Below are positions 11,724 to 34,453 of a DNA stretch of 64,000 bases, piece by piece. Location: the NCBI GenBank assembly GCA_035995985.1, contig DASYJY010000035.1, positions 378 to 64,377 on the forward strand, given 5' to 3'. The stretch's first letter is position 1; the number at the start of each line of letters is the position of its first letter. Below the pieces are notes generated by a model, which saw only the letters and a list, made by a program, of their open reading frames with translations, ran no database searches and had not been told where the DNA came from. This DNA is from Thermoanaerobaculia bacterium. GTDB lineage: Bacteria; Acidobacteriota; Thermoanaerobaculia; Gp7-AA8. Made by a program: the position numbers and the translations under genes.

Positions 11724-12386
11724 CTAATGGAACTGGGTATTGGCCGCCGCGATGCGCGCCGCCTTCTCTTGGTCATAGTCGATCGCGGTGTAGACCCACG
11801 TTTCGTAGGTGTCCGCGCCGAAAAGCGTCGCGAGCGATTTGCCGTGCGCGGCCGGGCGAACGCCGATGAACGGACCGCCCGCGTAGTCTTTGATCGGGAT
11901 GCCGGGAAGGGCGGGCGGCGCGTTGGGATTCGTGCCGGTGGTGCCGCTTGTATCTGTTGACGGTGCAGGAGGTGGAGGCGGCGGCAGCGGGCCGGGCGGG
12001 CCGCCGTTCGGCGTGGTGAAGTGCGCCGGGAGCGATCCGGCCGCGGCCTGCGGGATGATCAGCCAGTCCACCTCGCCTGTGAGGGGATCGATGTACTCGC
12101 CCTTCACTCCCCGAATCATCCGCGGCTGGCGCGCGTCCTTGAGTTGCTGAATCGAGGTCGGATACGTGGTGTTCTTCGTTTTGAAGTCGGAAACGGCCAT
12201 CGCATATTGATGCATGGCGTAGATCGTTTCCTGCTCCCGCTCGCGCTTCATGACGGTCGACCACATCCGCGGCACGGTGTACGCGACGACGATCATCATG
12301 ATCGTCATGACTACGAGCAGGCCGGCGAGCGTGAAGCCCGATTCGTCCGCGTTACCAGCTCTTGTACGGGGTGCCATCGAGTCCAT
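11724..12386 (-). CDS. GspG-like pseudopilin paralog with atypical leader (GFTLAG, no Glu+5) and poly-Pro linker
   Basis: Hydrophobic N-terminus ESGFTLAGLLVVMTIMMIVVAYT, a PPGPLPPPPPPAP tract, and a C-terminal pilin-like domain. Start taken at an internal Met; the alternative is 12377. Confidence 0.65.
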   Translation of the reverse strand: MDSMAPRTRAGNADESGFTLAGLLVVMTIMMIVVAYTVPRMWSTVMKREREQETIYAMHQYAMAVSDFKTKNTTYPTSIQQLKDARQPRMIRGVKGEYIDPLTGEVDWLIIPQAAAGSLPAHFTTPNGGPPGPLPPPPPPAPSTDTSGTTGTNPNAPPALPGIPIKDYAGGPFIGVRPAAHGKSLATLFGADTYETWVYTAIDYDQEKAARIAAANTQFH

Positions 12387-12783
12387 TGCCGGGAGCCTGG
12401 CTGTGTACGTCGTAGATGCCCGGAGCCGCGTTTTCCGACGCTGCTGCCGGATCAGTCGGAACCGCATTCGGGTCGGAAGGATCGGGCGTGTTCTGCACTT
12501 CCTCCCAATCCGCTTTCATCGTGATCGGGTCCTTGGGAACAGCGCGAAGGTAGTGCTCCTGCGCAAGCGCCTGGATGCTTTGCGGATACTTCTGCTTGTC
12601 GGCGTAATAGTCGTCGATCGATTTGCGCATCTCGAACAGGTCGTGGCGCAGCGCCGACTCGCGCGCTTTGGTCTGCGCCCACTTGACGTTCGACACGGCC
12701 ACGGCCGCGAGGATGCCGATGATCGTTACGACGACAATCAATTCGATCAGGGTGAAGCCGGATTGGCGTATCGGTCGTTTCAT
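12352..12783 (-). CDS. gspG: type II secretion system major pseudopilin GspG
   Basis: Prepilin leader MKRPIRQSG|FTLIELIVVVTIIGILAA followed by DLFEMRKSIDDYYADKQKYP (GspG fold signature). Confidence 0.85.
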   Translation of the reverse strand: MKRPIRQSGFTLIELIVVVTIIGILAAVAVSNVKWAQTKARESALRHDLFEMRKSIDDYYADKQKYPQSIQALAQEHYLRAVPKDPITMKADWEEVQNTPDPSDPNAVPTDPAAASENAAPGIYDVHSQAPGNGLDGTPYKSW

Positions 12784-12805
12784 GGTTTGCCTCGGAGTGG
12801 CCACT

Positions 12806-13300
12806 TCACCATTCGTTGTAGTGCGTCTTGCCGTCGAGGGCGGGCGCGGTTGATTTCGAGTGAATCTCGTACACGTTCTTGTCGCCGCCCGATGTGCTGT
12901 CCGGATCGTCGTCAGTCGTAAGAGTGGTCCATTCCGCTTTTCCGGTCATCGGATCGATGAGGTCGCGCTCGCGCAGCAGGCGGGCTTTCTGCCCGCTGGT
13001 GAGCTCGATCGGCTTGGTCAGATCTTCGAGCTTTTTCGGCCACGGCCCCTGCCCGATGTCGGGCGGATCTTTGATCAATCCGTTAGGCGCGCTCGTCGAC
13101 GGCATCCGCAGTTCGTGATAGCGATCGATGGCCTCGGTGATCTTGCGCAGCCGTTCGTGCAGTTCCATTTCCTTCTGACGACGCATGCCAAAGTTGGCCA
13201 GCGGCAAGGCCACCGTGGCCAGGATTCCGACGATCGCGACGACGGTAATCAGCTCGGCGACGGTGAAGCCGGAGCTCCGTTTGTAGGTTCGGGCATGCAT
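12806..13300 (-). CDS. GspG-like pseudopilin paralog
   Basis: Prepilin N-terminus SSG|FTVAELITVVAIVGILA and the GspG-like motif ELHERLRKITEAIDRYHEL. Its ATG overlaps the secretin stop (ATGA). Confidence 0.8.
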   Translation of the reverse strand: MHARTYKRSSGFTVAELITVVAIVGILATVALPLANFGMRRQKEMELHERLRKITEAIDRYHELRMPSTSAPNGLIKDPPDIGQGPWPKKLEDLTKPIELTSGQKARLLRERDLIDPMTGKAEWTTLTTDDDPDSTSGGDKNVYEIHSKSTAPALDGKTHYNEW

Positions 13301-15729
13301 CAGTCGACCTTGGCGCGGCCTCCGGAGACCGAGGCGTTCACGACGCTGCCGGCGCCGTTGGTGAGGTGCGGATCTTCGAGCACGAGATAGGTGTCGCCGG
13401 GAGCGCCGCCGCGTACGCGCAGCGAGGCGATGGAGCCGCCGCCATTGTTGAACTGCAGCGGCTTACCGTTCGATGACGTGATGCGAATCGTGCCGTGCTC
13501 GCGGTCGATCGTGGCCACGGGCGGCGTCTTCAGATCGATCGAGAGTGCCTGTCCGAAGACGACTTCGCTGACGTCGATCGTCATCGGGTTGTAGTGCAGG
13601 AGGATCTGTTTCGTGGTCAGCCCGTCGAGATCCATCCCGACGACGTCCCACATCTTCTCCTCGCCCGGCTTGAACGCCATGTGCATCGGCTGCGGCTGTA
13701 CGCGCGGCGAGAGTCCCGCGGTGTCAGTCGCATCGGCGACGGCGATCGACTGCGCGACCGCCGTGCCGCTGACCGGCTTGCCGATCTGGCTCTGCGGCAC
13801 CGGGGTTGGAGGCTGCGGCGTGGCATTCGGATTCGTCGGAGCGGAGTTGGGCGTGCGGCGGAAGGGATCACTCGGCGCGCTGCCCGGCGTGACCGTGATG
13901 TTCGACGAGGGAATCGGATTGCCGTCGCCATCGACGTTGCCGGCGCTGAATTGCTGCGCGCTGCGCGGCGAGAACGGATCGGCGGTGCTCTGCGACTCAA
14001 GGCGCGGTGAGAGTCCGCGGAAGCTCAGGTTGCTCTGCGTGCCGACCCACATCGGAGCCATGTCGTCTTCGGTGATATCCGGCATGCGGACGATGTGCGG
14101 CGTCATCGTGAGCATGAGGTCCGTGCGGTGGTGCATGTTGTGGTCCTTGGTGAACAGCCGCCCGAGGAGCGGGATGTCGCCGAGGAACGGGGTCTTGTTG
14201 CTGGACGTGAGCTGCGTGTCCTGAATGAGGCCGGCCAGGAAGTTCGTCTCGCCATCTTTGAGACGGATGGTCGCTTCGATCGTGCGCGTGTTGAACGACG
14301 GCGGGGCGTCGGCGCTGGCGGCGGCAGCGATGTCGGAGACTTCGACGGTCAGCTTGAGCGTGACCTCGCCGTTGTGATGGACGCGCGGCTCCATCGAGAC
14401 TTTGATACCGATGTCCTGATACTGGAACGATGTCGCGGGAAGACTTCCCTGCGTGCCGCTCTGCACGCCGGTGACGAACGTAGTGACCGGCACCGGCACG
14501 CGCTGACCGATGTGCAGCGTGGCCTTCTCCCCTTCGGAGATGCGCAGCTCGGGATTCGCGAGGGTCTCGGTGTTGCCGACGCTTTTGATCAGGTTGTAGG
14601 AAATGGACGGAATCGTGAAGACGAGGTTGGCGCTCTTCAGACCGCGAAGGAAATCGAGGTTCTGCAGGACGGGATTGCCCTTGTCGTCGACCGTGCTGGC
14701 CGCACCGAGCGTGCCGCCCAGACCGGTCACGACCGCGCCGATGTCGCGCTGCTTGTCGAGATCGATCTGCAGGAGCTCGACGTCGACGACGACTTCCGCT
14801 TTCGCTTTGTCGTTCGCTTCGATGATCTTCTCGGCGATACGAACTTTGTCCGCGGTGTCGCGGATGGTGATGGCGTTGAGCGCCTTCAGCGGGAAGACAT
14901 TGCGCGCTTCGATCATGGTCCGGACGACGTTCGTGACCTGCTCGGCGTCGCCGTTGGACAGATAGAAGGTGCGGATGACGAGGTCTTCGTAATCGCGGCG
15001 CGCCTGCGGATTGTCGGGGACGATGATGATGGTGTGCTCGTCGAGCGCTTTGTAGAAATGGTTGGCGGCCTGCATGACGCGCTCGAGAGCCTGCTGGGCG
15101 GTGACGTCCTTCAGCTCGACGGCGATGCGGTCGTCCTTCACGGCCTGGTCGAAAAGGATGTTGATGCCGAAGGCGCCGCCGAGCGCTTTGTAGATCTCCT
15201 TGACGGGCGTCTCGTGCGGAAACGAGAGTGTGATCGGCTGATCGGAGGTCGGGCTCAGTTGCGGCGGAGCGGACTTGGTGATGTTCGCCTTGGCGCGTTT
15301 CTTCAGTTCGTCGATCGTGGCGGGCTGTCCGGCCAGCGAGGCTTCGCGCAGCGTGTTGACGGCCTTGCCGTATTCAACGGCGGCGTACTGGTTGGTCGGA
15401 TCGAGCTTGATGACCAGCTCCAGCTCCGTCGCCGCAAGCTGCGTCAGCCGGATCTGATCCTCTCCTCGGGCGTTGAGCGCCGAGGCTCGCAGTGACTTTC
15501 CCTTTTGAAAATGAACGCGGGAGGCTTCCAGTTTGGCGCGGGAGAGATTGATCTGGTAGAGCGAGTTCGATGGATCGACGTCGAGCGCTTTCTGGTACTG
15601 GATGACGGCCTGATCCCAGTCCTTCGTCGTCTCAGCGGTCTTCGCTTTCTGAAACGCGTTGTAGCTGGTGCACGAGAGCAGCGTCAGCGACAACGCGATG
15701 GCGGTGATTCCGAGTTTCGTCTGGTTCAT
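13300..15729 (-). CDS. secretin (GspD/PilQ family) lipoprotein with N-terminal TPR-like region and ~260-aa C-terminal extension
   Basis: Lipobox LTLLSC. TPR-like helices within residues 40-150. N0/N1-like domains. Secretin domain ending LMLTMTPHIVRMPD. Then a Pro/Ser-rich linker plus a beta-rich C-terminal domain. Confidence 0.85.
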   Translation of the reverse strand: MNQTKLGITAIALSLTLLSCTSYNAFQKAKTAETTKDWDQAVIQYQKALDVDPSNSLYQINLSRAKLEASRVHFQKGKSLRASALNARGEDQIRLTQLAATELELVIKLDPTNQYAAVEYGKAVNTLREASLAGQPATIDELKKRAKANITKSAPPQLSPTSDQPITLSFPHETPVKEIYKALGGAFGINILFDQAVKDDRIAVELKDVTAQQALERVMQAANHFYKALDEHTIIIVPDNPQARRDYEDLVIRTFYLSNGDAEQVTNVVRTMIEARNVFPLKALNAITIRDTADKVRIAEKIIEANDKAKAEVVVDVELLQIDLDKQRDIGAVVTGLGGTLGAASTVDDKGNPVLQNLDFLRGLKSANLVFTIPSISYNLIKSVGNTETLANPELRISEGEKATLHIGQRVPVPVTTFVTGVQSGTQGSLPATSFQYQDIGIKVSMEPRVHHNGEVTLKLTVEVSDIAAAASADAPPSFNTRTIEATIRLKDGETNFLAGLIQDTQLTSSNKTPFLGDIPLLGRLFTKDHNMHHRTDLMLTMTPHIVRMPDITEDDMAPMWVGTQSNLSFRGLSPRLESQSTADPFSPRSAQQFSAGNVDGDGNPIPSSNITVTPGSAPSDPFRRTPNSAPTNPNATPQPPTPVPQSQIGKPVSGTAVAQSIAVADATDTAGLSPRVQPQPMHMAFKPGEEKMWDVVGMDLDGLTTKQILLHYNPMTIDVSEVVFGQALSIDLKTPPVATIDREHGTIRITSSNGKPLQFNNGGGSIASLRVRGGAPGDTYLVLEDPHLTNGAGSVVNASVSGGRAKVD

Positions 15730-15797
15730 TCGTTTCAATCCTGGGTAGCCAGCATGAGTTATCTGCTGATCACTCTGACGGTAGCATTTCGTAAAGG

Positions 15798-16472
15798 TCA
15801 CTGGCCGAGCGGCACACGCGTCTTGACGTCGACGGGGAAGCCGACGTAGCCGATCTCGACCGATTCGATGCCGATGCTGCGCAGCACGAACTTGCCGTCG
15901 ATCGTTTCACCGACGCGTACGTTGACGATCTCGCCGTTGCCGTTGAACGTCGCGATCGGATTGTTGACCGGCCCGAAAGTGCCGATGTACTTCATCGTGA
16001 ATTGCGGCGGTTGGGGAACCTGTGGCTTAGGCGGATTGGCCGCGAGCCAAGCCGCGTAATCGGGATCGCACACGTCACCCTTGCCGTTTGCGTTGTCGTC
16101 TTTCTGGTCAGGGTTGTAGGTGGTCGGACAGTTATCCCGGAAGTCAGGGATGCCGTCGTTGTCCTTGTCGGGAGGAGGCGGCGCCGCTTTCGGTGGGGGC
16201 TCCGGCGGTTTTGGTGGTGGCTCAACGTAGCCGAAGAGATTCCGCGCACTCTTATAGCTGCCGCTCTGCGCGTCCAGCCATTCGGTATGCAGCATGGGAA
16301 CGCCGGGCGTGGCGACCGTTTTCGCAATGCGCGCCGGATGCGGCGATGTGGCCGGCCGCGCCGGCGCCGGATCGACGGTATTCGACGTCGAAGCGAACGA
16401 ATAGATCGCAAAGAGGGCGATCAGAATGACGCCGACGACGGTCCAGGTTTTCCAGTTCATCCAATCCATCAC
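15798..16472 (-). CDS. PilP-like inner-membrane pilus assembly protein with embedded thrombospondin-type-3-like Ca-binding repeat
   Basis: N-terminal TM helix, a Pro-rich linker, DKDNDGIPDFRDNCPTTYNPDQKDDNANGKGDVCD, and a C-terminal beta domain. Sits between the pilO and secretin genes. Confidence 0.5.
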   Translation of the reverse strand: MMDWMNWKTWTVVGVILIALFAIYSFASTSNTVDPAPARPATSPHPARIAKTVATPGVPMLHTEWLDAQSGSYKSARNLFGYVEPPPKPPEPPPKAAPPPPDKDNDGIPDFRDNCPTTYNPDQKDDNANGKGDVCDPDYAAWLAANPPKPQVPQPPQFTMKYIGTFGPVNNPIATFNGNGEIVNVRVGETIDGKFVLRSIGIESVEIGYVGFPVDVKTRVPLGQ

Positions 16473-17080
16473 AACTGCCGGTTCGCGGCTGGCGCGGTCG
16501 AGCGCACGTCCTTGAATAAGGTTTTGAGTCGAATATTGAGCGTCAGGACCTTGTCGGTTCCGTTCCCGTTCGCGCCGAGGCCGATGCTGTCGATGATCAC
16601 GAACTGATCGGACAATTCGAGCAGATTGATCAGCCGCCGGATTTCTTCATACGTTCCCTGAACAGTGAATGCAATGCCTACCGTAGTCGTGCCGATCGAT
16701 CCTTTTGTCGACGGTGCATTCGAGAGCTGTTTCGACTCGCCGGTCGTGAATGCGTATGCGGGCGGCTGCAGGTGGCTGGCAGCCGCGAGCCGTTTCACTT
16801 CATCGATCAGCGCGGTCAGACGCTGCATCGGCGTCGACCAGCGCTCGTTGTAGAGCACCTGCAGGTCAGTCTGCACTTTCTTGTAGGCGGCGAGCTGCTG
16901 TTCCGCCGTCATGCGCGCATTGCGCGCCTGATCGAGTTGGGCCTCGCTCTGTGTCTGACGCGCATCGAGGTCGTGCAAACGGCTGACGTACTGGACGCGG
17001 TACGTGAAGAAAAAGAGCGTGTTCGCCAGCAGCAGGAGGCCGAGGACGATCAGCAGGACGCGCTTCTCACGCCAGATCAT
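16469..17080 (-). CDS. PilO/GspM-like pilus assembly protein
   Basis: Single N-terminal TM helix, a coiled coil, and a C-terminal ferredoxin-like domain. 4-nt overlaps with both neighbours. Confidence 0.7.
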   Translation of the reverse strand: MIWREKRVLLIVLGLLLLANTLFFFTYRVQYVSRLHDLDARQTQSEAQLDQARNARMTAEQQLAAYKKVQTDLQVLYNERWSTPMQRLTALIDEVKRLAAASHLQPPAYAFTTGESKQLSNAPSTKGSIGTTTVGIAFTVQGTYEEIRRLINLLELSDQFVIIDSIGLGANGNGTDKVLTLNIRLKTLFKDVRSTAPAANRQL

Positions 17081-17658
17081 TCGACCCTCCGCGCGATCGA
17101 CGGACGATAGTCGACGCCGAGCGTGAAGTGATACTCCGTTCCGGTGCCGATCATCGTTTCCGACGTCGGGAAGGCGTTGGCGAAGTGCGGATCGCCGTTG
17201 AAGCGGTTGATCGTGGCGGTGAGACCTTCACCGGTCTTGGTGATGCATGTCATCGAGAGGTGCACCAGTCCGTCTTTGTCGAACGACGGCGCGACCGACT
17301 GGAGCCGCACGTCGGTCGGCAGCACTTTCTCGAGGCGGTCGAGCAACTCGCTCCAGGAGAAGGCACGCTCGGCGAGCTGCGCGTTGGCGAACTCGGTCTG
17401 CGAGGCCAGCTGCTTGAGATCGACGACGCGAAGGCGCTGCGCGAACGTTTCGGTGCGGCGCTGTTCGTCGGCGATCTGCAGTTCGAGTTTGGCGATGTTC
17501 GCGCGCGTCGTTTTCGTTTCCGTGCGGTAGCGCAGAAACGTGTCGACGTTATTGAGCGCGAGAAACGCCGTCAGCACAGCCATGATGACCACGGCCGCGT
17601 AGACGGGCCGGTAATCGCGGAACGGCCGCGCGGCAAGGTTGAGATGGATCGGCTTCAC
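17077..17658 (-). CDS. PilN-like pilus assembly protein
   Basis: GTG start giving VKPIHLNLAARPFR, then a TM helix and a coiled coil. The GTG overlaps the pilM stop (GTGA). Confidence 0.7.
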   Translation of the reverse strand: MKPIHLNLAARPFRDYRPVYAAVVIMAVLTAFLALNNVDTFLRYRTETKTTRANIAKLELQIADEQRRTETFAQRLRVVDLKQLASQTEFANAQLAERAFSWSELLDRLEKVLPTDVRLQSVAPSFDKDGLVHLSMTCITKTGEGLTATINRFNGDPHFANAFPTSETMIGTGTEYHFTLGVDYRPSIARRVE

Positions 17659-18545
17659 CCTGTGAATACTCCCGTGGCGGCGGTCAGCTCCGCTTCGTAT
17701 GCGCCGGCGTCGCCCGGCGACTGTTCGGCCACGTCGCGCAAGGAAATCTTGACGACTGGCGCCGAGAACTCGCTGCCGATCGTACCGGTCACCTCGCCAT
17801 TGATACCGTTGCCGACCACGTAGCATTTTTCAACCGACGTGGTCTGGAACGTGTCGCGAAGATACGTCGCGGAGAGCCGGATCTCCTGCTGGAGCGTCCG
17901 TTCGCCGTTGAGATTACGCGAGCGAATGAACAGCGGCTGCGCGCCGCGGAAGACGGCGGTGGTGAAGTCGTGATCGCGGATGTAGAAGAAGATGCGGTCG
18001 CGCGTGGTCGCGGCTTCGCGGGCGGTGATCGCGTTCCAGACGTTGAGGCCGGCCGGCTCGATGAGGATGACTTCGATTCCGGCGGCTTCGAACAAGCGTT
18101 CGATCGCGCTGATGGTGGCATTGACGGCGCTGACCGCGAGAATGCGCGGCGGCGTCCGGCTGAGCACTTCATACGACAGCCGCAGCTCCGTCGGATCGAC
18201 CGGCATGGTGCGGCGCAGGCTCCAGCGGATCACTTCCGCGGCTTCGCTGGCGCGCTCCGGCAAGGTCTGCAACTCGATGATGTTCATGCGGAACCAGGAG
18301 TCGGGCAGGAGCAGCGAGAGCTTGTCCCATCGTCCCGTTTCGAGCTTCATGCGCCGGATCGTTTCGGCCAGCAGCGCTTCGTTGCGCAGCTCGGGCGTGA
18401 CCACGCCGGCCGCGAAGACATCGTCGCGCAGCGGGTAACTCTTCGCCTGCAGGATCTGCATCTCTTTCCGTCCGCGGCCTACACGGGCGTGGACGAGAGA
18501 ATCGTTATCCAGTACGACGACGTCAGGTGGGAAAGAGCGCGCCAT
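17655..18545 (-). CDS. PilM-like actin-fold pilus assembly protein
   Basis: 296 aa with actin-like ATPase-fold segments. First gene of a pilMNOP-secretin block. Confidence 0.7.
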   Translation of the reverse strand: MARSFPPDVVVLDNDSLVHARVGRGRKEMQILQAKSYPLRDDVFAAGVVTPELRNEALLAETIRRMKLETGRWDKLSLLLPDSWFRMNIIELQTLPERASEAAEVIRWSLRRTMPVDPTELRLSYEVLSRTPPRILAVSAVNATISAIERLFEAAGIEVILIEPAGLNVWNAITAREAATTRDRIFFYIRDHDFTTAVFRGAQPLFIRSRNLNGERTLQQEIRLSATYLRDTFQTTSVEKCYVVGNGINGEVTGTIGSEFSAPVVKISLRDVAEQSPGDAGAYEAELTAATGVFTG

Positions 18546-18546
18546 A

Positions 18547-20172: not shown

Positions 20173-20181
20173 GACGGTCTC

Positions 20182-23131: not shown

Positions 23132-23208
23132 CGGCTGGTGCCTCCTGATTGGAAAGTACCGGTTGCAACGGACGCCGCCAATGGGCGCATTCCCTGCCCT
23201 TTCGGGCT

Positions 23209-23805: not shown

Positions 23806-23968
23806 TGCTCTTCTCCTTTGTTCGGAGAAGGCCATTGCAAGAGAACGGAGGCAGACGCATTTTCAGCTAAGTTGCTGCGAGCAGACGAGTTATCAAACTC
23901 GATGAGGCGCGCCAGCCGTCAAAAAGATTGGCGGCGTCGCCGGTTTTTCACGCGGCGACGCCGTGCCG

Positions 23969-29031: not shown

Positions 29032-29032
29032 G

Positions 29033-30235
29033 TCATTTCCCGACCCAATACTTGCTGCGGCTGAAACGGTACTGACCCATTTGTGAATTGATCTGGCCGA
29101 TGATGGCCGGGTCGTAGTCAGCCTCGGAAATGTCCGTACCGCTGTTGATCGCTACCGTGGCGCTGCTGGAGTTGTTCGCCGCGATGATGGCACCGCTCAC
29201 CTGCGTGACCTCGCTGATGACGAGGTTGCCCGTGCAATAGATGACGCCACTCCAATTGGAGTTCGATCCGACCGCGACCGTCAGATCGCCATACACGACC
29301 AGGATTCCGCTGCCAGTGAGTGGCCGCTTGTTATCAAACACGGCAGGGCCATTGATGATGATCAGGTTCATCGCCGGCAGCGGATTGGGAAGGTCAGTTA
29401 CCGTCGTCACATTAACGTCGGCAAGACCCTGCAACTCCTGAGGCGTCACTGCAAAGACCGCCTGGATGTCGTACGGCGCCGCGGAATTGGTCTTCGTAGG
29501 CGTGAGACCGCGGACCACTCCGTTATTTTTCATACCGAGACCGCCGCCCGGTCTGCACGAGACGCCGATCCCTGCACCGCCCTGGATTTTAGTTTTTGTA
29601 TCGATCGTGACGTTATCGCAATTCGCGCTGAAGAGGGCCGCGCCGCCGTCAGGAACATTGACGCTCATTTTCTGAATCTCAGTGCGAAAGGTCTGCTTTG
29701 AAAGAATCTGATTGGTGCTCTGATCGTAATTATCGTTGGCTGGATCGTTCTGCACCCACACGTATCCGATCGACTCCAACTGCCAGACGGAGCCCTGGGT
29801 CGCACTAGTGCGGCCTTTCTGGTTGGTAACGTCGACGACGCCAGCCCCGGCCACGCTGAACGGGAGGCTGCCTTTCCTGACTTCATACCGGGCCATCAGA
29901 CGTCCCGGACCGCTGACTTGATAGTTGCGGACGATCCCCATGTTGGGACTGTTGGTGTCCTCAGTCTCGTTGATCGGCGGATTCGCGGACGCGTCGATAA
30001 TGGGGTTGAACGTCTTGACGGGCTGTACCTTCTGCTTCCGGAACCATGACAGCGCATCGACCAAACCTGCCTGCGCGGCATTCGCGGCCTGTCCCTGATA
30101 GGTGAGTTGGCGGGAGACGAGACGGTTTCCGAGTTGAACCTGAGTCAACATCGTGAGAAGCGTCAGCAGAACGAGCGAGATGATGATCGTCGTCGCAAGG
30201 ACTGCTTGTCCTCTTTCTCTGTGGCGGTGCTTCAT
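29033..30235 (-). CDS. GspK-like minor pseudopilin
   Basis: N-terminus MKHRHRERGQAVLATTIIISLVLLTLLTML (GspK-type uncleaved hydrophobic start, no Glu+5), with a large periplasmic domain. Confidence 0.6.
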   Translation of the reverse strand: MKHRHRERGQAVLATTIIISLVLLTLLTMLTQVQLGNRLVSRQLTYQGQAANAAQAGLVDALSWFRKQKVQPVKTFNPIIDASANPPINETEDTNSPNMGIVRNYQVSGPGRLMARYEVRKGSLPFSVAGAGVVDVTNQKGRTSATQGSVWQLESIGYVWVQNDPANDNYDQSTNQILSKQTFRTEIQKMSVNVPDGGAALFSANCDNVTIDTKTKIQGGAGIGVSCRPGGGLGMKNNGVVRGLTPTKTNSAAPYDIQAVFAVTPQELQGLADVNVTTVTDLPNPLPAMNLIIINGPAVFDNKRPLTGSGILVVYGDLTVAVGSNSNWSGVIYCTGNLVISEVTQVSGAIIAANNSSSATVAINSGTDISEADYDPAIIGQINSQMGQYRFSRSKYWVGK

Positions 30236-30370
30236 TCGTCCTCCCGGCAGCATGGTGGGCTCCCTATGAGCAATGGCTGAGCCATGCGGTGCGTATCGCC
30301 TAAGCGATTGATGTACGGCCATTTAGCTATTTCCTAGGGCTTTCGAGGTCGAGAGCATCGCCGGATTCTG

Positions 30371-32071
30371 TTACAAAATGTAACGGCTGCGCAGCTGCTC
30401 CGACAGCACCTCGGCGGGCGACGTGCCGGTGGCGGACGGCTCATCGAACTCGATCTCGGCCACGGCTCCCCCTTCCGGGCGCGGCAGGAGTTGGATGGTG
30501 CCCTGGTGCAGAAGGATGATCTTTTTCGTCAGCGTCAGCCCGAGGCCGAAGCCGGCAGGCTTTCCTGATTGGAAGGGGACGAAGAGCCGAACGGCCGGAT
30601 CGAGACCCGCTCCGTCGTCTTCGACCGTGATGCGGCTCCGTGGATGCGCGCTCGTGCGGATGACGATGCGGCCCTCACCTCCCCGCGATTGAATCGATTC
30701 GACGGCGTTGCGAATGATGTTGTCGAGTGCGCGCGCCAGGAGCGCCGCGTCACCGCGCACGGAGAGCTTGTCGCCGCTGACGTCGAACGCGATGGCCGGC
30801 GCGAGTGGCGCGATCCGTTCGACGACATCGCGGACGAGCGCGGTCAGCGCGACATCATCGTGCCGGGCGGCGAGCGGCCGGCCGAGCGCGAGGAGACGTT
30901 CGACGGCGTCCGAAAGCGCGAGCGCCTCCTGTTCGGCCTTGCGCAGCCGCTCGTTGCTCGCTTCGTCCGCCGCGCCGAGGCGAGCCAGCCGGAGGTAGCC
31001 GAGAATCGCCGCGAGTGAATTTCGGAATTCGTGCGCAATGCCTCCTGACATTTCGCCCAGATCGGCAAGCGCCTGCATGTCGCGCACGCGCTGCTCGAGC
31101 TTGCGGACTTCGGTCAGGTCGGCGAACAGCGCGAGCATGCCGAGGTATCGGCCGTCCTGATCCATGAGCGGGACCGTCGAGACGCCGATGTGCACCGGTT
31201 CGGCGCCGCCGCTCGTCACCTCGCGGCGCTGCACGGCGATTCGCCGCTCGTGCGCCATCGCCAGCGTCCGTGCGAACGTCGATGTGCCGAGGGCCTGCTC
31301 GACGGTGCGGCCGGTGGCGGCGGCGCTGCCCGGCAGGTCGAGGATGTCGCAGGCGAACTGATTCAGATCGACGATCAGGCCGGCTTCGTCGAGGGCGATG
31401 AATCCGGAGGTGAGACTGCGCACGAGCGTGCCGGTCAGACGGGCCAATTCGTCGGCGCGTTCTTTCTCTTGCCGATGCATCCGTTTCAGCTCGTTCTCGC
31501 GCTGCTTCAGCGTTTCGAGAGAGCTGCCGAACGTGTGGAGAAGGTAGGCGGTGCCGCCCTCGTCGCCGGCCGTTCCGCGCTCCGCCGGCGCGCGGCCTCG
31601 AATCGCGTCATTGACGTAGACCGGCAGAAGAAGGATCGCGGCGATTCCGGCGATGACGCCGGCCACGAGCGCCAGCCGCACCGTCCGGGCGATGTGCTGC
31701 AACGCCTCTTCCGCGAAGTGAATGCGGACGACGGCCGGTCCGGCCGTCCGCGTTTCCACGTGCGACGGCGCGCCGGCCGGCGGGACGATGCCCAATCGCA
31801 CGACTGCACTACCCGACTGAATCTCGATGGCGTCCAGCCGGTATCGCTGCCGCAGGACATCGAGCGCGGCCAGGTCAGGGATGCCGCCTGCGAGCGTTGC
31901 CGCACACGCGTCGCTGATAGCCGCCTCGCGTTCGCGTTCGGATCGTTGCGCGACAATCCAGAGCGCCGGAACGGTGCTCGACAACACGACGGCGCCGGCG
32001 GCGAACAGCGCCAGCAGCATCGACGAGACGCCAAGCAACGACCTGCGCCGGGAAGCGGATCCGCTGGACAT
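30371..32071 (-). CDS. sensor histidine kinase with TM/PAS-like sensor, HisKA and HATPase_c domains
   Basis: H-box GGIAHEFRNSL, plus N, D and G boxes (IIRNAVES, DDGAGL, GFGLGL). Start taken at MSSGSASRRRSLLGV to avoid overlapping the peptidase gene. Confidence 0.8.
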   Translation of the reverse strand: MSSGSASRRRSLLGVSSMLLALFAAGAVVLSSTVPALWIVAQRSEREREAAISDACAATLAGGIPDLAALDVLRQRYRLDAIEIQSGSAVVRLGIVPPAGAPSHVETRTAGPAVVRIHFAEEALQHIARTVRLALVAGVIAGIAAILLLPVYVNDAIRGRAPAERGTAGDEGGTAYLLHTFGSSLETLKQRENELKRMHRQEKERADELARLTGTLVRSLTSGFIALDEAGLIVDLNQFACDILDLPGSAAATGRTVEQALGTSTFARTLAMAHERRIAVQRREVTSGGAEPVHIGVSTVPLMDQDGRYLGMLALFADLTEVRKLEQRVRDMQALADLGEMSGGIAHEFRNSLAAILGYLRLARLGAADEASNERLRKAEQEALALSDAVERLLALGRPLAARHDDVALTALVRDVVERIAPLAPAIAFDVSGDKLSVRGDAALLARALDNIIRNAVESIQSRGGEGRIVIRTSAHPRSRITVEDDGAGLDPAVRLFVPFQSGKPAGFGLGLTLTKKIILLHQGTIQLLPRPEGGAVAEIEFDEPSATGTSPAEVLSEQLRSRYIL

Positions 32072-32093
32072 TCCTGACAGGATAGCGCCGCGG

Positions 32094-32921
32094 TCAGCGC
32101 GGCACGAAGCTGAGATACCAGTCCGCCATCTCGTGACCGAAGAACAGAACGGCGAGAAAGCCGATGCCGAGGAAGACGCCGAACGGGAGCGCGGTCCGCA
32201 TCCCTTCGCCACTGCGAATCGCGAGCGGGATGCTGATCAACGATCCGGTCACCGAGGCGATCATGAGGACCGGGACGACGCTTCGCCATCCGGTGACGGC
32301 GCCGATCATCGCCAGCAGTTTGATGTCGCCCTGCCCCATCCCCTCGGCATGGCGCAAAAGCCAGTAGATGCCGATGATCGCCAGCGGAATGGCCGCGCCG
32401 AGGAACGCGCCGAAAAGGGAGTCGAGCAGCGAATCGGCCAGCATCAGCGATGGATGCAGGATGCCGAGGCCGAGCGCGCCGGCGCCGAGTCCGATGGCGA
32501 TGCCGGGGAGGTCGATGACGTCAGGAAGGATTTGGATATCGGCGTCGATGTAGATGAGGGCGATGGTGATCGAGATGATCGCCGCGACGATCACGAATGC
32601 GACTGTCGGCCCGGTGCGCTGATAGACAGCAAGATAAAAGAGCGCGTTCGCCAGCTCTACGAGCGGATAGCGCCAGGCGATGCCGGCTCCGCAGGCGCGG
32701 CAACGTCCGCGCAGCACGATGAAACTGAGGACGGGGATGTTGTCGTACCAGCGGATGGCCGCATCGCACTGCGGACAATGGCTGCCGGGAAAGACGATCG
32801 ACTCGTCGCGCGGATAGCGATGGATGACGACGTTGAGAAAGCTTCCGACGATCGCGCCGATGGCAAAGGCGTAGATGCCGAGCAGGAGCGTCATTGAGGC
32901 GGATTGTATTGGGAGTGTCAT
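32094..32921 (-). CDS. prepilin peptidase (A24 family; PilD/GspO)
   Basis: N-terminal CPQC...CRAC zinc-binding tetracysteine. Eight TM segments. Catalytic Asp region GQGDIKLLAMIGA. Confidence 0.9.
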   Translation of the reverse strand: MTLPIQSASMTLLLGIYAFAIGAIVGSFLNVVIHRYPRDESIVFPGSHCPQCDAAIRWYDNIPVLSFIVLRGRCRACGAGIAWRYPLVELANALFYLAVYQRTGPTVAFVIVAAIISITIALIYIDADIQILPDVIDLPGIAIGLGAGALGLGILHPSLMLADSLLDSLFGAFLGAAIPLAIIGIYWLLRHAEGMGQGDIKLLAMIGAVTGWRSVVPVLMIASVTGSLISIPLAIRSGEGMRTALPFGVFLGIGFLAVLFFGHEMADWYLSFVPR

Positions 32922-32924
32922 CCG

Positions 32925-33203
32925 CTACGACGCGGAGATCTCTTCCCCAAGCACCTCGGCGCGCGCGGCTTCGACGGCCAGCAGGATCTCCTGGTAGAGA
33001 TGGAAGGCGAAGTCTTTGTTCAGCGGCTCGGCGGCTCCGCGGTTGACGATGTCCGCGATCTGGGCGGCGTAGTACGACGCCAGCGGAAGGCGTTCGCCGG
33101 AGTTGTGGATCTGGCGGAATCCGAAGAGCAGTTCTTCGCGCAGCGACTCGCGAAAGAGGCCGTTGGCGACGTCGTCTTCGAGGCTCTCGTAGTCGACATT
33201 CAT
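32925..33203 (-). CDS. hypothetical small protein (92 aa)
   Basis: Start taken at MNVDYESLEDD, whose ATG overlaps the upstream gene's stop (ATGA). The track ORF's Arg-rich 5' extension is judged artefactual. Confidence 0.35.
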   Translation of the reverse strand: MNVDYESLEDDVANGLFRESLREELLFGFRQIHNSGERLPLASYYAAQIADIVNRGAAEPLNKDFAFHLYQEILLAVEAARAEVLGEEISAS

Positions 33204-34366
33204 CGGATGAACGACTCCACGAGCTTGGCGTCGGCGCCGTACGCGGCGCGAACGCGGACACCGTCCAGCGCCATCTTCGGTTCGAGGCCTCGGCCGCGAA
33301 GGAAGGCCGCGTAGGCGTCGCGGAAGGCGAGGGCGCGGCCGGCGTTTTCCCACTGCGTGTCGACGAGCACGGTCGGATCGCATTTGATGTTCTGCACGAC
33401 AGTGACGCGATCGTCGATCCATCCGGCGCCGGCGTCGCCAACGAGGAAGCGCCAGTGAAACTCGCCGAGGTGCTCGACGGTGAGGGCGTGGGGGAGCGGG
33501 GACTTGTCGTCGAACGCGACCGCCGCCGCGCTGGTCGCGGCGAGGCGTGTGAAGTATTCGGCAGGATGGAGCACCTCGCGCGTCGAACGCGGCGGGTTCT
33601 CGTCCATGCGGTCGACCATCTTCCAGCCGCCGCGGCGATAGCCTTCGATGACCAGCTTCAGCCCCTCCGCGTACGGAAACTTGAGCGACTCGGCGAAGTA
33701 GCGTGGCGTGGACGCGTCGATCGTTTTGTCGGCGGCGCCCAGAGACGACGTCAGCATCGACAGCACTTCGGGATTGGCGAGGACGTCGTCGAGCTTTTGG
33801 CCGGCGCGGTCGAGCACGAAGTCGATCATCACCAGCGTCGCTTCGCCTTCCAGCAGCGCATGCAGCGCGAGGCCGCCGTCGGTATCTTTCTGCAAGGCAA
33901 GATCGCGCGCGCCGGCGTGGAAGCGCTGGTCCTGGAGCGCGTGCGTCAGTTCGTGGATGACGACCGACTCGCGGAGCATGTCGCTGTCTCCGATCCCGCC
34001 GGCAGCGGACGGCAGCTTGTCGATCGCGAAGTAGGTGTGCGTCAGCGGATCGTAGAAAGCCAGCACCTGCGACTCGTACAGATCGAGCATGCTGCCGACG
34101 AGATCGGTCTTGCCGCCGTCAACGAGTTGCAGGGCGCGGAGAACGAGCGCGTAGTCGTCGGGCGAATACGGCAGCGATTTCTCCATCTGCGCGCGCAGAA
34201 CCTTCGGCAGCTCTTCACGCGTGATCATCTTCGAGACGACGGGACGGATGAACGTGAGTCCGCGCAGCTTCTCGACCACTTTCATTTCGGTATCGAGCGA
34301 TGCGGCGTGCGCGGCCGCCGAGACAAGAAAGAGTATTGCGATGAAGACCGGGAGCCGTCGGGACAT
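33200..34366 (-). CDS. secreted putative zinc metallopeptidase (HExxH motif), function unknown
   Basis: Signal peptide MSRRLPVFIAILFLVSAAAHA. VVIHELTHALQD with a downstream EGEAT (gluzincin-like). First gene of the long minus-strand operon. Confidence 0.5.
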   Translation of the reverse strand: MSRRLPVFIAILFLVSAAAHAASLDTEMKVVEKLRGLTFIRPVVSKMITREELPKVLRAQMEKSLPYSPDDYALVLRALQLVDGGKTDLVGSMLDLYESQVLAFYDPLTHTYFAIDKLPSAAGGIGDSDMLRESVVIHELTHALQDQRFHAGARDLALQKDTDGGLALHALLEGEATLVMIDFVLDRAGQKLDDVLANPEVLSMLTSSLGAADKTIDASTPRYFAESLKFPYAEGLKLVIEGYRRGGWKMVDRMDENPPRSTREVLHPAEYFTRLAATSAAAVAFDDKSPLPHALTVEHLGEFHWRFLVGDAGAGWIDDRVTVVQNIKCDPTVLVDTQWENAGRALAFRDAYAAFLRGRGLEPKMALDGVRVRAAYGADAKLVESFIR

Positions 34367-34405
34367 GCGGCTCGCAACGGTGCGGCTATCCCCGCGATTC
34401 CGAAT

Positions 34406-34453
34406 TTCACTCTTCACACTTCACACTTCACCCTTCACTCTTTAGCCTTTACA
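34406..34453. promoter_or_regulatory. tandem heptamer array (TTCACNC x5 plus 2 degenerate units) in the divergent promoter region, abutting the rsbW-like start codon
   Basis: The sequence reads ttcactc ttcacac ttcacac ttcaccc ttcactc tttagcc tttacaa, followed by ATG. Confidence 0.55.

What the first reader, a model, noticed from the sequence alone, without database searches (positions are those of the whole stretch)
11724..34453. About 22.7 kb minus-strand supercluster encoding a complete hybrid T2SS / type-IV-filament machine with unusual components
The gene order in the direction of transcription is:
- HExxH secreted protein, small protein, prepilin peptidase, PAS histidine kinase;
- GspK-like, giant GspI-like, GspJ-like and GspH-like pseudopilins, then a secreted hypothetical;
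- a divergent GGDEF regulator;
- GspF, GspE, PilM, PilN, PilO, PilP-like;
- a TPR-secretin;
- three GspG paralogs.

T2SS-type pseudopilins (including the GspG signature DLxxMRxxIDxYYxDxxxYP) are combined with PilMNOP instead of GspC/L/M. Almost every junction has a 1-4 nt start/stop overlap (ATGA or GTGA), which suggests translational coupling. The completeness, the giant tip pseudopilin, the fused TPR-secretin and the embedded c-di-GMP module together point to a specialised secretion or adhesion filament, not a housekeeping T2SS.
Basis: partly seen in the sequence, partly recalled or inferred. Interest (0 to 1): 0.7.

Follow-up and report, generated by a model that had tools for sequence, protein, structure and literature searches.

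The report
Pilus machine with giant tip pilin
An uncultured soil-type bacterium (Acidobacteriota, class Thermoanaerobaculia) keeps all genes for a type IV pilus-like filament machine in one 22.7 kb cluster. Two of the four tip subunits are greatly enlarged, one to 1,317 residues, and this conserved tip module has not been described before.

Summary
HMM searches confirm a prepilin peptidase, a PAS histidine kinase, a REC-GGDEF protein on the opposite strand, a GspF/PilC platform, a GspE/PilB ATPase, a secretin and six prepilin-type proteins.

- The 296-aa protein is PilM-like.
- The 400-aa protein is a GspK/ComZ-type tip pilin with an ice-binding-protein-like beta-helix.
- The 1,317-aa protein is a GspI-like pilin module carrying about 1,150 extra residues.
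- The GspJ label rests on position only. The GspH label has weak profile support.

The claim that almost every junction overlaps is overstated. Only 6 of 17 same-strand junctions overlap by 1-4 nt. A conserved terminator-like hairpin and a conserved sigma-54-like promoter divide the cluster into several transcription units.

The ATPase is nearer to T4aP PilB than to GspE. The machine is best read as a T4aP-like system with PulG-like pilins, resembling the Thermus ComZ-PilA2 arrangement, not a true T2SS hybrid.

The most original part is the triad G05-G06-G07. It keeps the same order in about 56-65 of 73 species loci across several phyla and has no family model. I rate it a new variant of a known kind, of moderate interest.

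The parts
33200..34417 (-). G01: secreted HExxH protein of 405 aa. It has a Sec signal peptide and the motif HELTH. Probably an accessory gene, not core to the system.
   Evidence: NCBIfam Hvo_1808 family 2.7e-31, below the curated cut-off. No Pfam hit. Found only in the closest relatives L003 and L006.
32925..33203 (-). G02: small 92-aa protein of unknown function. Its ATG overlaps the G01 stop codon (ATGA).
   Evidence: No family hit. Junction sequence. Present only in L003 and L006.
32094..32921 (-). G03: bifunctional prepilin peptidase (PilD/GspO type).
   Evidence: Pfam A24_N_bact 2.8e-36 and Peptidase_A24 1.2e-14. The CxxC...CxxC motif is visible in the translation.
30371..32071 (-). G04: membrane PAS histidine kinase (AtoS/PilS-like). 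It lies directly upstream of the minor-pilin genes.
   Evidence: Pfam PAS_4, HisKA and HATPase_c. NCBIfam AtoS 4e-55, sub-cut-off. A kinase gene of this family lies at the triad in at least 16 loci.
30267..30284 (-). Sigma-54-type -24/-12 element TGGCTCAGCCATTGCTCA. It sits about 35 nt upstream of a conserved GGAGG ribosome-binding site and the ATG of G05.
   Evidence: One mismatch to TGGCAC-N5-TTGC. Conserved (3 variable positions inside, TGGCT and CCATTGCTCA fixed) in 7 relatives while the flanks diverge. Absent from the 56 more distant loci.
29033..30235 (-). G05: 400-aa GspK/ComZ-type tip pilin. It has a short leader (MKHRHRERG|QAVL), no Glu5, a pilin-like sheet and a C-terminal right-handed beta-helix.
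25078..29031 (-). G06: 1,317-aa modular minor pilin. It has a prepilin leader (QSG|MSLIE) and a GspI-like pilin module. After that come a ThuA/GATase1-like domain, beta-sandwich domains, a FliD/flagellin-like insert (about residues 705-825) and a C-terminal beta-sandwich.
23969..25081 (-). G07: 370-aa minor pilin (QRG|ITLME). It is 'GspJ-like' by position only. Its start overlaps the G06 stop codon (ATGA).
   Evidence: N_methyl 4e-6. Profile searches match only the pilin alpha-1 helix. It always follows the giant pilin, with a prepilin motif visible in most of the 19 loci scanned.
23921..23963 (-). Conserved GC-rich hairpin followed by a U-run, just after G07. It looks like an intrinsic terminator or attenuator.
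   Evidence: MFE -34.7 kcal/mol, z -2.2. The stem co-varies, the loop CGUGAAAAAC is invariant and a T-rich tract follows in the relatives. The simple terminator scan missed it.
23209..23835 (-). G08: 208-aa minor pilin (SKG|MTLLE), weakly GspH/FimU-like.
   Evidence: N_methyl 4.8e-5. hhalign against E. coli GspH gives 91% probability over 69 columns. Present in 12 loci.
22610..23131 (-). G09: 173-aa secreted protein of unknown function, Ala/Pro-rich, with the motif YDSPLVRAAK.
   Evidence: No family hit. Homologs lie downstream of the triad in 9 loci by BLAST. A related small secreted family occurs in about 20 further loci.
21586..22680 (+). G10: REC-GGDEF response regulator, a probable diguanylate cyclase. 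The GGDEF motif and the RxxD I-site are intact.
   Evidence: Pfam GGDEF 6.8e-35 and Response_reg 6.6e-22. Motifs read from the translation. Present at this position only in the window's clade (L003, L006). It is rearranged in L014 and absent from L005, L008, L033 and L059.
20182..21387 (-). G11: inner-membrane platform protein (GspF/PilC).
   Evidence: Pfam T2SSF 3.4e-54, two repeats. NCBIfam GspF 298.6 bits and PilC 264.5 bits, both below the equivalog cut-offs.
18547..20172 (-). G12: assembly ATPase (PilB/GspE). It has Walker A, two CxxC motifs and an N1E-type N-terminal domain without the c-di-GMP motif.
   Evidence: Pfam T2SSE 1e-129 and MshEN 7.8e-16. NCBIfam GspE 539 bits and PilB 534 bits, both sub-cut-off. 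PDB: Geobacter and Myxococcus PilB 420-424 bits, above GspE/EpsE at 345 bits. Motifs.
17655..18545 (-). G13: PilM-like cytoplasmic actin-fold protein.
   Evidence: No Pfam or NCBIfam hit. The family profile hits only Thermus PilM 2ych_A, E 5.5e-4.
17077..17658 (-). G14: PilN-like bitopic protein of 193 aa. Its N-terminus KPIHLNLAARPF resembles the PilN INLLP motif. Its GTG start overlaps the G13 stop codon (GTGA).
   Evidence: Sequence and junction. No PDB or family hit. The assignment rests on motif, topology and position.
16469..17080 (-). G15: PilO/GspM-like bitopic protein.
   Evidence: Weak, sub-threshold hits: T2SSM_b 1.1e-3 and GspM_XpsM 4e-5.
15798..16472 (-). G16: PilP/GspC-HR-like protein. 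It has an N-terminal membrane anchor, a Pro-rich linker, an inserted thrombospondin type-3 Ca-binding repeat and a C-terminal beta domain.
   Evidence: TSP_3 1.5e-6. Profile against COMP/thrombospondin 1e-24. The C-terminal residues 162-210 match PilP 2y4x and 2lc4 at E 0.5-0.75. The TSP3 insert is absent from the L033 homolog. Weak GspC_delta hit at the N-terminus.
13300..15729 (-). G17: 809-aa liposecretin. In order it has a signal peptide with a lipobox (LLSC), an N-terminal TPR region, N0-like and N1 domains, the secretin domain, a Pro/Ser/Thr linker and a C-terminal cohesin-like domain.
   Evidence: Secretin 3.5e-42 and Secretin_N 1.9e-8. TPR_2 2e-5 and Cohesin 0.025 on pieces. Homologs carry TPR, Secretin_N and Secretin Pfam hits, many also Cohesin. 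Nearly all full-length homologs keep a Cys right after the signal-peptide h-region.
12806..13300 (-). G18: PulG/GspG-like pilin paralog of 164 aa (SSG|FTVAE).
   Evidence: N_methyl hit. Weak GspG and PilA hits. Paralogous to G19 and G20.
12352..12804 (-). G19: PulG/GspG-like pilin of 143-150 aa (QSG|FTLIE), the best candidate for the major subunit. It has no cysteines and a GspG-like C-terminal ...LDGTPYKSW.
   Evidence: N_methyl 1.7e-8 and T2SSG 4e-3. NCBIfam GspG 49.4 bits against a cut-off of 88.85. PDB: geopilin N-domain 47 bits, PulG 34.5 bits.
11724..12386 (-). G20: third pilin paralog of 220 aa. It lacks Glu5 (ESG|FTLAG) and has a Pro-rich insert. Its 5' end overlaps the end of G19 by 26-35 nt.
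   Evidence: N_methyl 1.2e-4. GspG 9e-7. JGI gene call of 220 aa. Junction.

Best explanation
**What it is.** This is the biogenesis locus of a type IV filament in a Thermoanaerobaculia bacterium. It is closest in build to a type IVa pilus machine.

**How it most likely works.**
- The peptidase (G03) processes six or seven prepilins.
- The PilB-like ATPase (G12) and the PilC-like platform (G11) drive polymerisation.
- The PilM/N/O/P-like proteins (G13-G16) link the inner-membrane motor to the secretin.
- The secretin (G17) is lipidated and carries TPR repeats. It probably targets itself to the outer membrane without a separate pilotin.
- Four minor pilins prime assembly and end up at the filament tip: G05 (K/ComZ-like), G06 (I-like), G07 (J position) and G08 (H-like).
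- The shaft is built from PulG-like pilins, with G19 the most likely major subunit.

Because G05 carries a beta-helix and G06 carries about 1,150 extra residues, the tip would display a large, conserved binding head. The filament would then serve attachment to a conserved ligand, possibly also DNA or polymer capture.

**Regulation.** Expression of the tip operon is probably driven from a sigma-54 promoter. It is probably controlled through the adjacent PilS-like kinase and an unlinked activator. In this clade a REC-GGDEF protein adds a c-di-GMP output.

**Shown versus inferred.**
- Shown: component identities, fold similarities, synteny and conserved non-coding elements.
- Inferred: tip location, surface exposure, adhesion, self-piloting and the regulatory wiring.
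For: **Core parts.** HMM searches identify the core components.

**T4aP-like build.**
- The ATPase is nearer to T4aP PilB of Geobacter and Myxococcus (420-424 bits) than to GspE/EpsE (345 bits).
- PilM and PilN are split, unlike the fused GspL. The PilM profile hits only Thermus PilM, and a PilN-type N-terminal motif is present.
- Pfam finds a single Secretin_N (N1) stretch and a weak N0-like STN match in the secretin.

**Tip complex.**
- In Thermus, ComZ (a GspK-like pilin with an ice-binding-protein-like solenoid) binds the adjacent GspI-like PilA2. Together they are argued to cap the pilus (PMC6561018).
- Large modular pilins are argued to be tip-exposed (PMC8179133).

**Conservation.**
- The triad keeps its order in about 56-65 of the loci, and prepilin motifs are visible in most of the 19 loci scanned across phyla.
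- The full collinear cluster recurs in L005, L008, L033 and L059.

**Other elements.**
- The lipobox Cys is conserved across secretin homologs.
- The sigma-54-like element and the hairpin are conserved against diverged flanks.
Against: - No retraction ATPase (PilT) is present in the window.
- The pilins are PulG/GspG-like, with no disulfide D-region. NCBIfam scores slightly favour the Gsp models for the ATPase, platform and secretin.
- No component reaches an equivalog cut-off.
- PilN, PilO and PilP rest on weak or positional evidence. GspJ-likeness of G07 could not be shown.
- Whether a tip pilin of roughly 140 kDa (estimated from its length) can pass the secretin is unknown.
- In most genomes the triad is unlinked to any ATPase within 10 kb. 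Its dependence on this particular machine is therefore inferred.
- The high conservation of G06 (33-50% identity across classes and phyla, with many invariant residues) is unusual for an adhesin.
Confidence: 0.6

Rival explanations
1. It is a true type II secretion system of a non-proteobacterial type. A short periplasmic pseudopilus of GspG-like subunits, capped by the enlarged K/I/J tip, pushes folded exoproteins through the secretin. The filament never leaves the cell.
For: - The pilins are GspG-like: motif, no cysteines, GspG-type C-terminus, and the best NCBIfam hit is GspG.
- GspE, GspF and GspD models score slightly above PilB, PilC and PilQ.
- There is no PilT in the window.
- Sources annotate homologs as 'general secretion pathway protein D' or PulG.
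- Denise et al. 2019 report many T2SS outside Proteobacteria without experimental evidence.
Against: - The ATPase is nearer to PilB in the PDB comparison.
- PilM and PilN are split instead of fused as GspL, and no GspC with a PDZ domain is present.
- Pfam finds a single Secretin_N (N1) stretch in the secretin.
- A tip subunit with about 1,150 extra residues and adhesin-like or FliD-like folds is hard to fit in a periplasmic piston.
- The closest structural analog of the G05/G06 pair is the Thermus pilus tip.
Confidence: 0.2
2. It is a competence (DNA-uptake) pilus like that of Thermus thermophilus. The ComZ-like G05, together with the GspI-like G06, forms a tip receptor for extracellular DNA.
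For: - It lies next to a GspI/PilA2-like pilin, as in Thermus, where ComZ and PilA2 bind each other and DNA.
Against: - No ComEA, ComEC or DprA genes were seen in the ORFs inspected across the window.
- G06's large extra modules have no counterpart in PilA2.
- The ComZ DNA-binding lysines could not be mapped.
Confidence: 0.1
3. G05-G06-G07 is an independent module whose linkage to this machine is incidental. It may be a membrane-anchored surface complex that uses prepilin-type signals only for anchoring, in the manner of the archaeal bindosome. In that reading G06 is a conserved enzyme or receptor, not a filament subunit.
For: - The triad stands alone, with no ATPase or platform within 10 kb, in most of the 73 loci. 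These include isolate Mor1 and the Planctomycetota and Elusimicrobia MAGs.
- G06 is unusually well conserved, with many invariant His, Asp, Glu, Arg and aromatic residues.
- It contains a ThuA/GATase1-like domain.
- GC3 is lower in G05 and G06 (0.70-0.72) than in their neighbours (0.78-0.85).
Against: - Minor-pilin operons of T4aP are commonly unlinked to the machine genes, so standing alone does not argue against a pilin role.
- A K-like pilin without Glu5, an I-like pilin and a J-position pilin mirror the GspK-I-J and PilX-V-W tip sets.
- The linked, collinear arrangement is conserved in at least nine loci even though G06 identity there is only 42-70%.
Confidence: 0.1

Closest known systems
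Thermus thermophilus type IVa pilus / competence pilus (PilF, PilC, PilM-N-O-W-Q, PilA1-4, ComZ)
   Same: - PilB/PilF-type ATPase, split PilM and PilN, and a secretin.
- Minor pilins are structurally like T2SS pseudopilins.
- A GspK-like pilin carrying an ice-binding-protein-like beta-solenoid (ComZ) lies next to a GspI-like pilin (PilA2).
   Different: - The I-like partner here is 1,317 aa, not a small pilin.
- The major pilins are PulG-like.
- The secretin is lipidated with a TPR head and a cohesin-like tail.
- No PilT or competence genes are found nearby.
- Sequence similarity to ComZ is undetectable.
Proteobacterial type II secretion system (Gsp/Xcp), especially the GspK-GspI-GspJ tip complex
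   Same: - GspE/F/D-type core parts and GspG-like pilins.
- Four minor pilins, with a K-type lacking Glu5.
   Different: - No fused GspL and no GspC with a PDZ domain. PilM/N/O/P-like proteins take their place.
- The K-type carries a beta-helix, not an alpha-domain.
- The I-type is more than ten times larger: E. coli GspI is about 125 aa.
- The gene order is K-I-J-H, not H-I-J-K.
- The ATPase is nearer to PilB.
- No component reaches the NCBIfam Gsp equivalog cut-offs.
Deltaproteobacterial T4aP (Geobacter, Myxococcus) with PilS/PilR and sigma-54 control of pilin genes
   Same: - The best solved-structure matches of the ATPase are the PilB proteins of these organisms.
- The N-terminus of the pilin matches geopilin best.
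- A PAS histidine kinase lies beside pilin genes, and a sigma-54-type promoter lies in front of them. PilS/PilR-sigma-54 control of pilA is established knowledge, not tested here.
   Different: - No PilR-type activator and no PilT in the window.
- The promoter precedes the minor-pilin operon, not the major pilin.
- No PilY1.
- The secretin lacks AMIN domains.
Modular type IV pilins (S. sanguinis PilB/PilC, ETEC CofB; survey in PMC8179133)
   Same: [quoted passage not shown]
   Different: - G06 has 1,317 aa and its family spans about 1,030-1,660 aa. That exceeds the largest case in that survey (860 aa).
- Its extra modules have no Pfam or NCBIfam signature, so a domain-signature survey of that kind would not have detected it as modular.
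- The family is conserved across phyla and always sits between two partner pilins.
Self-piloting liposecretin HxcQ and the TPR lipoprotein pilotins (PilF/PilW/Tgl, TadD)
   Same: The secretin has a conserved lipobox cysteine at its N-terminus, like HxcQ, and TPR repeats like the T4aP and Tad pilotins. HxcQ is cited through PMC12475490.
   Different: The TPR module and the secretin form one polypeptide here, with an added C-terminal cohesin-like domain. Lipidation and self-piloting were not tested.

Membership tests
Type II secretion system (Gsp) | GspE ATPase, GspF platform and GspD secretin at equivalog level | tested here: not met
   Homologous, but all below the NCBIfam curated cut-offs: GspE 539 vs 630, GspF 299 vs 424, GspD 171 vs 351. 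The ATPase is closer to PilB in the PDB comparison.
Type II secretion system (Gsp) | GspL (fused cytoplasmic, membrane and periplasmic parts), GspM, and GspC with HR plus PDZ or coiled-coil domains | tested here: not met
   PilM-like and PilN-like proteins are separate genes. Only weak GspM hits were found. The PilP/HR-like protein has no PDZ domain and only a weak N-terminal GspC_delta hit.
Type II secretion system (Gsp) | GspG major pseudopilin and GspH-I-J-K minor pseudopilins | tested here: inconclusive
   GspG-like, but sub-threshold at 49 vs 88.85 bits. I-like and K-like folds are supported. H-like support is weak. J-likeness is not demonstrable.
Type II secretion system (Gsp) | Secretion of folded exoproteins | not testable with these tools
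   Needs a secretome comparison of mutants.
Type IVa pilus (T4aP) | PilB-type assembly ATPase, PilC platform and PilD peptidase | tested here: met
   PilB of Geobacter and Myxococcus are the best solved relatives at 420-424 bits. T2SSF 3.4e-54 and A24 domains. All remain below the NCBIfam PilB and PilC equivalog cut-offs.
Type IVa pilus (T4aP) | PilM-PilN-PilO-PilP alignment subcomplex and a PilQ secretin | tested here: inconclusive
   PilM profile hit at E 5.5e-4, and it is unique. PilN is supported by motif only. PilO/GspM is weak. PilP is weak at E 0.5. The secretin domain is clear, but there is no AMIN domain.
Type IVa pilus (T4aP) | PilT retraction ATPase | tested here: not met
   There is no second secretion ATPase anywhere in the 64 kb window. 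The rest of the genome is not available.
Type IVa pilus (T4aP) | T4a major pilin with a disulfide-bonded D-region | tested here: not met
   The three candidate shaft pilins have no cysteines and are PulG-like.
ComZ-PilA2-type tip complex (Thermus) | A GspK-like pilin with an inserted ice-binding-protein-like beta-solenoid, adjacent to a GspI-like pilin | tested here: met
ComZ-PilA2-type tip complex (Thermus) | Physical ComZ-PilA2 binding and DNA binding | not testable with these tools
   Needs complex prediction or biochemistry.
Modular type IV pilins | Class III signal peptide and a pilin module fused to non-pilin modules | tested here: met
   The QSG|MSLIE leader gives an N_methyl hit. The model shows a GspI-like module followed by ThuA-like, FliD-like and beta-sandwich domains.
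Liposecretin / fused pilotin | N-terminal lipoprotein signal on the secretin, with TPR repeats | tested here: met
   The lipobox LLSC is present, and nearly all full-length homologs keep the Cys. TPR hits are found in the window copy and in homologs. This is sequence-level evidence only, and lipidation was not tested.
MSHA-type pilus | MshE ATPase with the c-di-GMP-binding MshEN motif, and an MshL secretin | tested here: not met
   The RLGxxLLxxGLI...Q motif is absent. MshL scores 105 bits against a cut-off of 250.

The most novel reading that the evidence does not exclude
G05-G06-G07 is a previously unrecognised, cross-phylum class of enlarged filament tip. A GspI-type subunit has become a conserved head of about 1,100-1,600 residues, holding ThuA-like, beta-sandwich and sometimes FliD-like domains. 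It is partnered with a beta-helix K-type subunit. Its strong conservation would mean it recognises or processes one universal ligand, for example a polysaccharide. It would not be a variable adhesin. In that reading a type IV filament serves as the display or delivery device for a large conserved effector. A further speculative possibility is that the secretin's cohesin-like tail docks the Ca-binding TSP3 repeat of the PilP-like protein.
Probability: 0.25. Interest if true: 0.7.

Novelty: new variant of a known kind. Interest (0 to 1): 0.5.

Why it matters
- **Undescribed machines.** Type IV filament machines outside Proteobacteria, Firmicutes and Thermus are almost unstudied. No paper in the searched library links Thermoanaerobaculia with a described type IV pilus or T2SS.
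- **A possible general design for the tip.** This locus suggests that the four core minor pilins can be expanded into a very large tip structure: one 1,317-aa pilin plus one beta-helix pilin. The design is conserved in Acidobacteriota, Planctomycetota, Elusimicrobia and unclassified lineages, as 410 representative clusters at E<=1e-30.
- **Size limits.** It extends the known size range of modular pilins. It also raises the question of how such a head passes a secretin.
- **Experimental route.** The isolate 'Acidobacteria bacterium Mor1' carries the triad (L037) and offers an entry point for experiments.
- **Ecology.** If the head binds a common environmental polymer, it could explain how these abundant soil and sediment bacteria attach to surfaces.

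Tried and rejected
- **Sequence searches against solved structures.** Searches with G06, G05 and the G14 profile found nothing useful.
- **G07 and G08 profiles.** They matched only the shared pilin helix. hhalign of G07 against E. coli GspJ aligned only 32 N-terminal columns. The GspJ label therefore stays positional.
- **Rfam.** Nothing was found in the whole window.
- **Simple promoter and terminator scan.** It found no sigma-70 promoter in the intergenic regions and missed the conserved hairpin.
- **c-di-GMP link to the ATPase.** Rejected, because the MshEN binding motif is absent.
- **GGDEF as a conserved part of the system.** Rejected. It is found near the triad in only 4-7 of about 49 loci with enough flank, and it is absent from four collinear clusters.
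- **G01 and G02 as system components.** Not supported beyond the closest relatives.
- **Not available.** TXSScan/MacSyFinder and multimer prediction could not be run.

Full report
**Source and setting.**
The window matches a contig of JGI metagenome 3300035673. Homologs of its proteins are named almost only from Thermoanaerobaculia MAGs (Acidobacteriota). The flanking genes are housekeeping genes, including an M16 peptidase, a methyltransferase, LepA and an anti-sigma-type kinase. The cluster is therefore bounded at about 11724 and 34417. GC content is about 62%, which produces many spurious long antisense ORFs.

**Checking the observation.**
Twenty genes lie in the stated order. Pfam and NCBIfam confirm the following:
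- a prepilin peptidase;
- a PAS-HisKA-HATPase kinase;
- a REC-GGDEF protein on the + strand;
- a T2SSF platform;
- a T2SSE ATPase with an N1E/MshEN-type N-domain;
- a secretin;
- six proteins with a prepilin N_methyl motif (G06, G07, G08, G18, G19, G20).

None of the ATPase, platform, secretin or pilin hits reaches the NCBIfam equivalog cut-offs for either the Gsp or the Pil families. G05, G13 and G14 have no significant family match (G05 only a chance-level, sub-threshold Pfam hit). G15 and G16 have only weak matches.

The junction claim is overstated.
- Overlaps of 1-4 nt (ATGA, GTGA or TGATG) occur at 6 of 17 same-strand junctions.
- Five junctions have spacers of 1-9 nt.
- G19/G20 overlap by 26-35 nt.
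- The remaining gaps are about 22 nt (G03/G04), at least 46 nt (G04/G05), 133 nt (G07/G08), 77 nt (G08/G09) and 68 nt (G16/G17). The last figure holds if the secretin starts at the lipoprotein signal, as JGI calls it.
- The GGDEF gene diverges from gspF across a 198-nt spacer. Its 3' end overlaps that of G09 by about 70 nt.

**The assembly machine.**
- *ATPase.* G12 has a Walker A motif and two CxxC motifs but lacks the MshEN c-di-GMP-binding motif. Among solved structures it scores highest with T4aP PilB of Geobacter and Myxococcus (420-424 bits over residues 18-539). Thermus PilF follows at 368 bits and GspE/EpsE at about 345 bits.
- *PilM.* A profile of G13 and five orthologs hits a single PDB sequence, Thermus PilM (E 5.5e-4).
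- *PilN.* G14 starts four bases before the G13 stop codon. It begins KPIHLNLAARPF, which resembles the PilN INLLP motif (recalled from knowledge of PilN, not tested), and is followed by one membrane helix.
- *PilO.* G15 gives weak GspM/T2SSM_b hits.
- *PilP.* G16 has a membrane anchor, a proline-rich linker and a thrombospondin type-3 calcium-binding repeat (profile E 1e-24 against COMP). Its C-terminal beta domain weakly matches PilP (E 0.5-0.75). The TSP3 insert is missing from the L033 ortholog.
- *Secretin.* G17 is unusual in three ways.
  - A lipobox cysteine follows the signal peptide and is kept in nearly all full-length homologs.
  - An N-terminal TPR region is present.
  - A C-terminal cohesin-like domain follows a Pro/Ser/Thr linker. 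Both domains are weak in the window copy. They are recorded as Pfam hits in many of the 120 listed homologs, all about 800 aa long.
  - Pfam finds a single Secretin_N (N1) stretch and a weak N0-like STN match.
- *Shaft pilins.* The three terminal pilins are paralogs. They have no cysteines and a GspG-type helix-proximal motif and C-terminus. G19 has the most canonical leader. G20 lacks Glu5.
- *Retraction.* There is no second secretion ATPase (PilT) in the window.

**The minor-pilin block.**
G06 (1,317 aa) belongs to a large family.
- 605 clusters at 90% identity match it.
- 410 representatives at 50% identity match at E<=1e-30.
- It occurs in 73 species-level genome loci. Most are Thermoanaerobaculia. 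The set also includes the isolate 'Acidobacteria bacterium Mor1' (subdivision 22), several Planctomycetota MAGs, an Elusimicrobia MAG and unclassified bacteria.
- Apart from the N_methyl motif, no Pfam or NCBIfam model covers it.

Across these loci G05, G06 and G07 keep the same order and strand in about 56-65 loci. In 19 loci scanned across phyla, a GxxxxE prepilin motif is visible on the giant protein, on the following 310-400-aa protein, or on both, in 18 of them.

The insert at residues 705-825, which I assign to the FliD/flagellin matches from its sequence and strand pattern, is present in only about 30% of the family. The remaining roughly 1,100 residues are well conserved, with blocks of 83% identity.

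*G07 and G08.* G08 aligns with E. coli GspH over 69 columns (91% probability). G07 aligns with pilins, including GspJ, only through the N-terminal helix.

'GspH-like' is weakly supported. 'GspJ-like' is supported only by position.

**Synteny and transcription units.**
The whole collinear arrangement recurs in L005, L008, L033 and L059. G06 identity there is only 42-70%. The order is pilD, kinase, G05, G06, G07, G08, (G09), gspF, gspE, M, N, O, P, secretin (as far as each locus extends). A rearranged form occurs in L014, L031 and L044. The linkage is therefore conserved in one part of the class.

In most other loci the triad stands alone. One example is L075, where a small secreted protein and a convergent GGDEF gene follow it. 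Another is Mor1, where it lies next to a DUF11/SdrD-like surface protein. This is what one expects of T4aP minor-pilin operons.

The REC-GGDEF gene lies between the two halves only in the window's own clade (L003, L006). G01 and G02 occur only there as well.

Two conserved non-coding elements divide the cluster.
- *Promoter-like element.* The sequence TGGCTCAGCCATTGCTCA lies upstream of a conserved GGAGG-ATG, which is probably the true start of G05. Three internal positions vary among seven relatives. The TGGCT and CCATTGCTCA parts are fixed and the flanks have diverged. It looks like a sigma-54 promoter.
- *Terminator-like hairpin.* It sits after G07, its stem co-varies and its loop is invariant.

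No sigma-54 activator is encoded in the window.

**Interpretation.**
The parts list and the nearest structural analogs favour a T4aP-like filament machine. Its four core minor pilins would form the priming and tip complex. Two of them are enlarged into a big tip head. I put this reading at about 0.6.

A genuine T2SS remains possible at about 0.2. The pilins are GspG-like, PilT is not seen, and the Gsp HMMs score marginally higher. A Thermus-like DNA-uptake role (about 0.1) and an autonomous pilin-anchored surface complex (about 0.1) cannot be excluded.

The term 'hybrid' overstates the case. The pseudopilin-like character of minor pilins is normal for T4aP, so the real mixture is limited to PulG-like shaft pilins on a PilB/PilMNOP-type machine.

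**Novelty.**
No paper in the searched library describes such a system in this class. A survey of modular pilins found 860 aa as the extreme case (PMC8179133). The G06 family is larger than that and would not be detected as modular by domain signatures.

The machine itself is a member of a known superfamily. The conserved K-I-J triad with a giant I subunit and a beta-helix K subunit, together with the TPR-lipo-secretin carrying a cohesin-like tail, make it a new variant of a known kind.

Noticed in passing
window 23921-23963 (minus strand): A hairpin lies after G07 whose stem co-varies between relatives while its 10-nt loop CGUGAAAAAC is invariant. A U-run follows it. The rest of the intergenic region has diverged. 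An invariant loop is unusual for a plain terminator, so it may be a regulatory RNA element.
   Followed up: partly
window 30267-30284 (minus strand): A sigma-54-type -24/-12 element is conserved in seven relatives, with TGGCT and CCATTGCTCA fixed. It lies upstream of the G05 start codon. No enhancer-binding protein (GAFTGA motif) is encoded in the window.
   Followed up: partly
window 30371-30385 (minus strand): A perfect palindrome GTTACAtttTGTAAC spans the stop codon of the kinase gene and is conserved in six relatives. It may simply be conserved coding sequence, or it may be a binding site.
   Followed up: no
window 25078-30235: G05 and G06 have lower GC3 (0.72 and 0.70) than the other cluster genes (mostly 0.77-0.85). 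The window-wide GC profile dips here too. Together with the cross-phylum spread of the triad, this hints at lateral transfer of the module.
   Followed up: partly
L003 13248-19939: In this close relative about 6.7 kb is inserted between G07 and G08. The content was not examined.
   Followed up: no
L010, L016-L024, L035, L036, L043, L049-L051 (about 2.2-2.7 kb downstream of the giant pilin, opposite strand): A stand-alone protein of about 215 aa with two tandem MshEN-type c-di-GMP-binding motifs (for example L043:16184-16831) recurs near the triad in 15 loci. The window has no counterpart.
   Followed up: partly
window 15798-16472 and 13300-13750: The PilP-like protein carries a thrombospondin type-3 Ca-binding repeat, and the secretin ends in a cohesin-like domain. 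A dockerin-like/cohesin contact between the two is conceivable but untested. The TSP3 insert is absent from the L033 ortholog.
   Followed up: partly
window 25078-29031 (G06 residues about 360-405, 650-665, 876-900, 1019-1020): Clusters of invariant His, Asp, Glu and Arg residues are conserved across the 64 aligned homologs, all of 49% identity or more to G06. Examples are NLHGELxPFPPVRNYSDAAK, THPE and GDPRHCPYAD. They may mark metal or ligand sites. No enzymatic fold was identified.
   Followed up: no
window 34457-34927 (+ strand): An RsbW-type anti-sigma kinase (HATPase_c_2, 1.4e-23) is transcribed divergently from G01. A small ORF follows it that may be its STAS partner. It is probably unrelated to the cluster.
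   Followed up: partly
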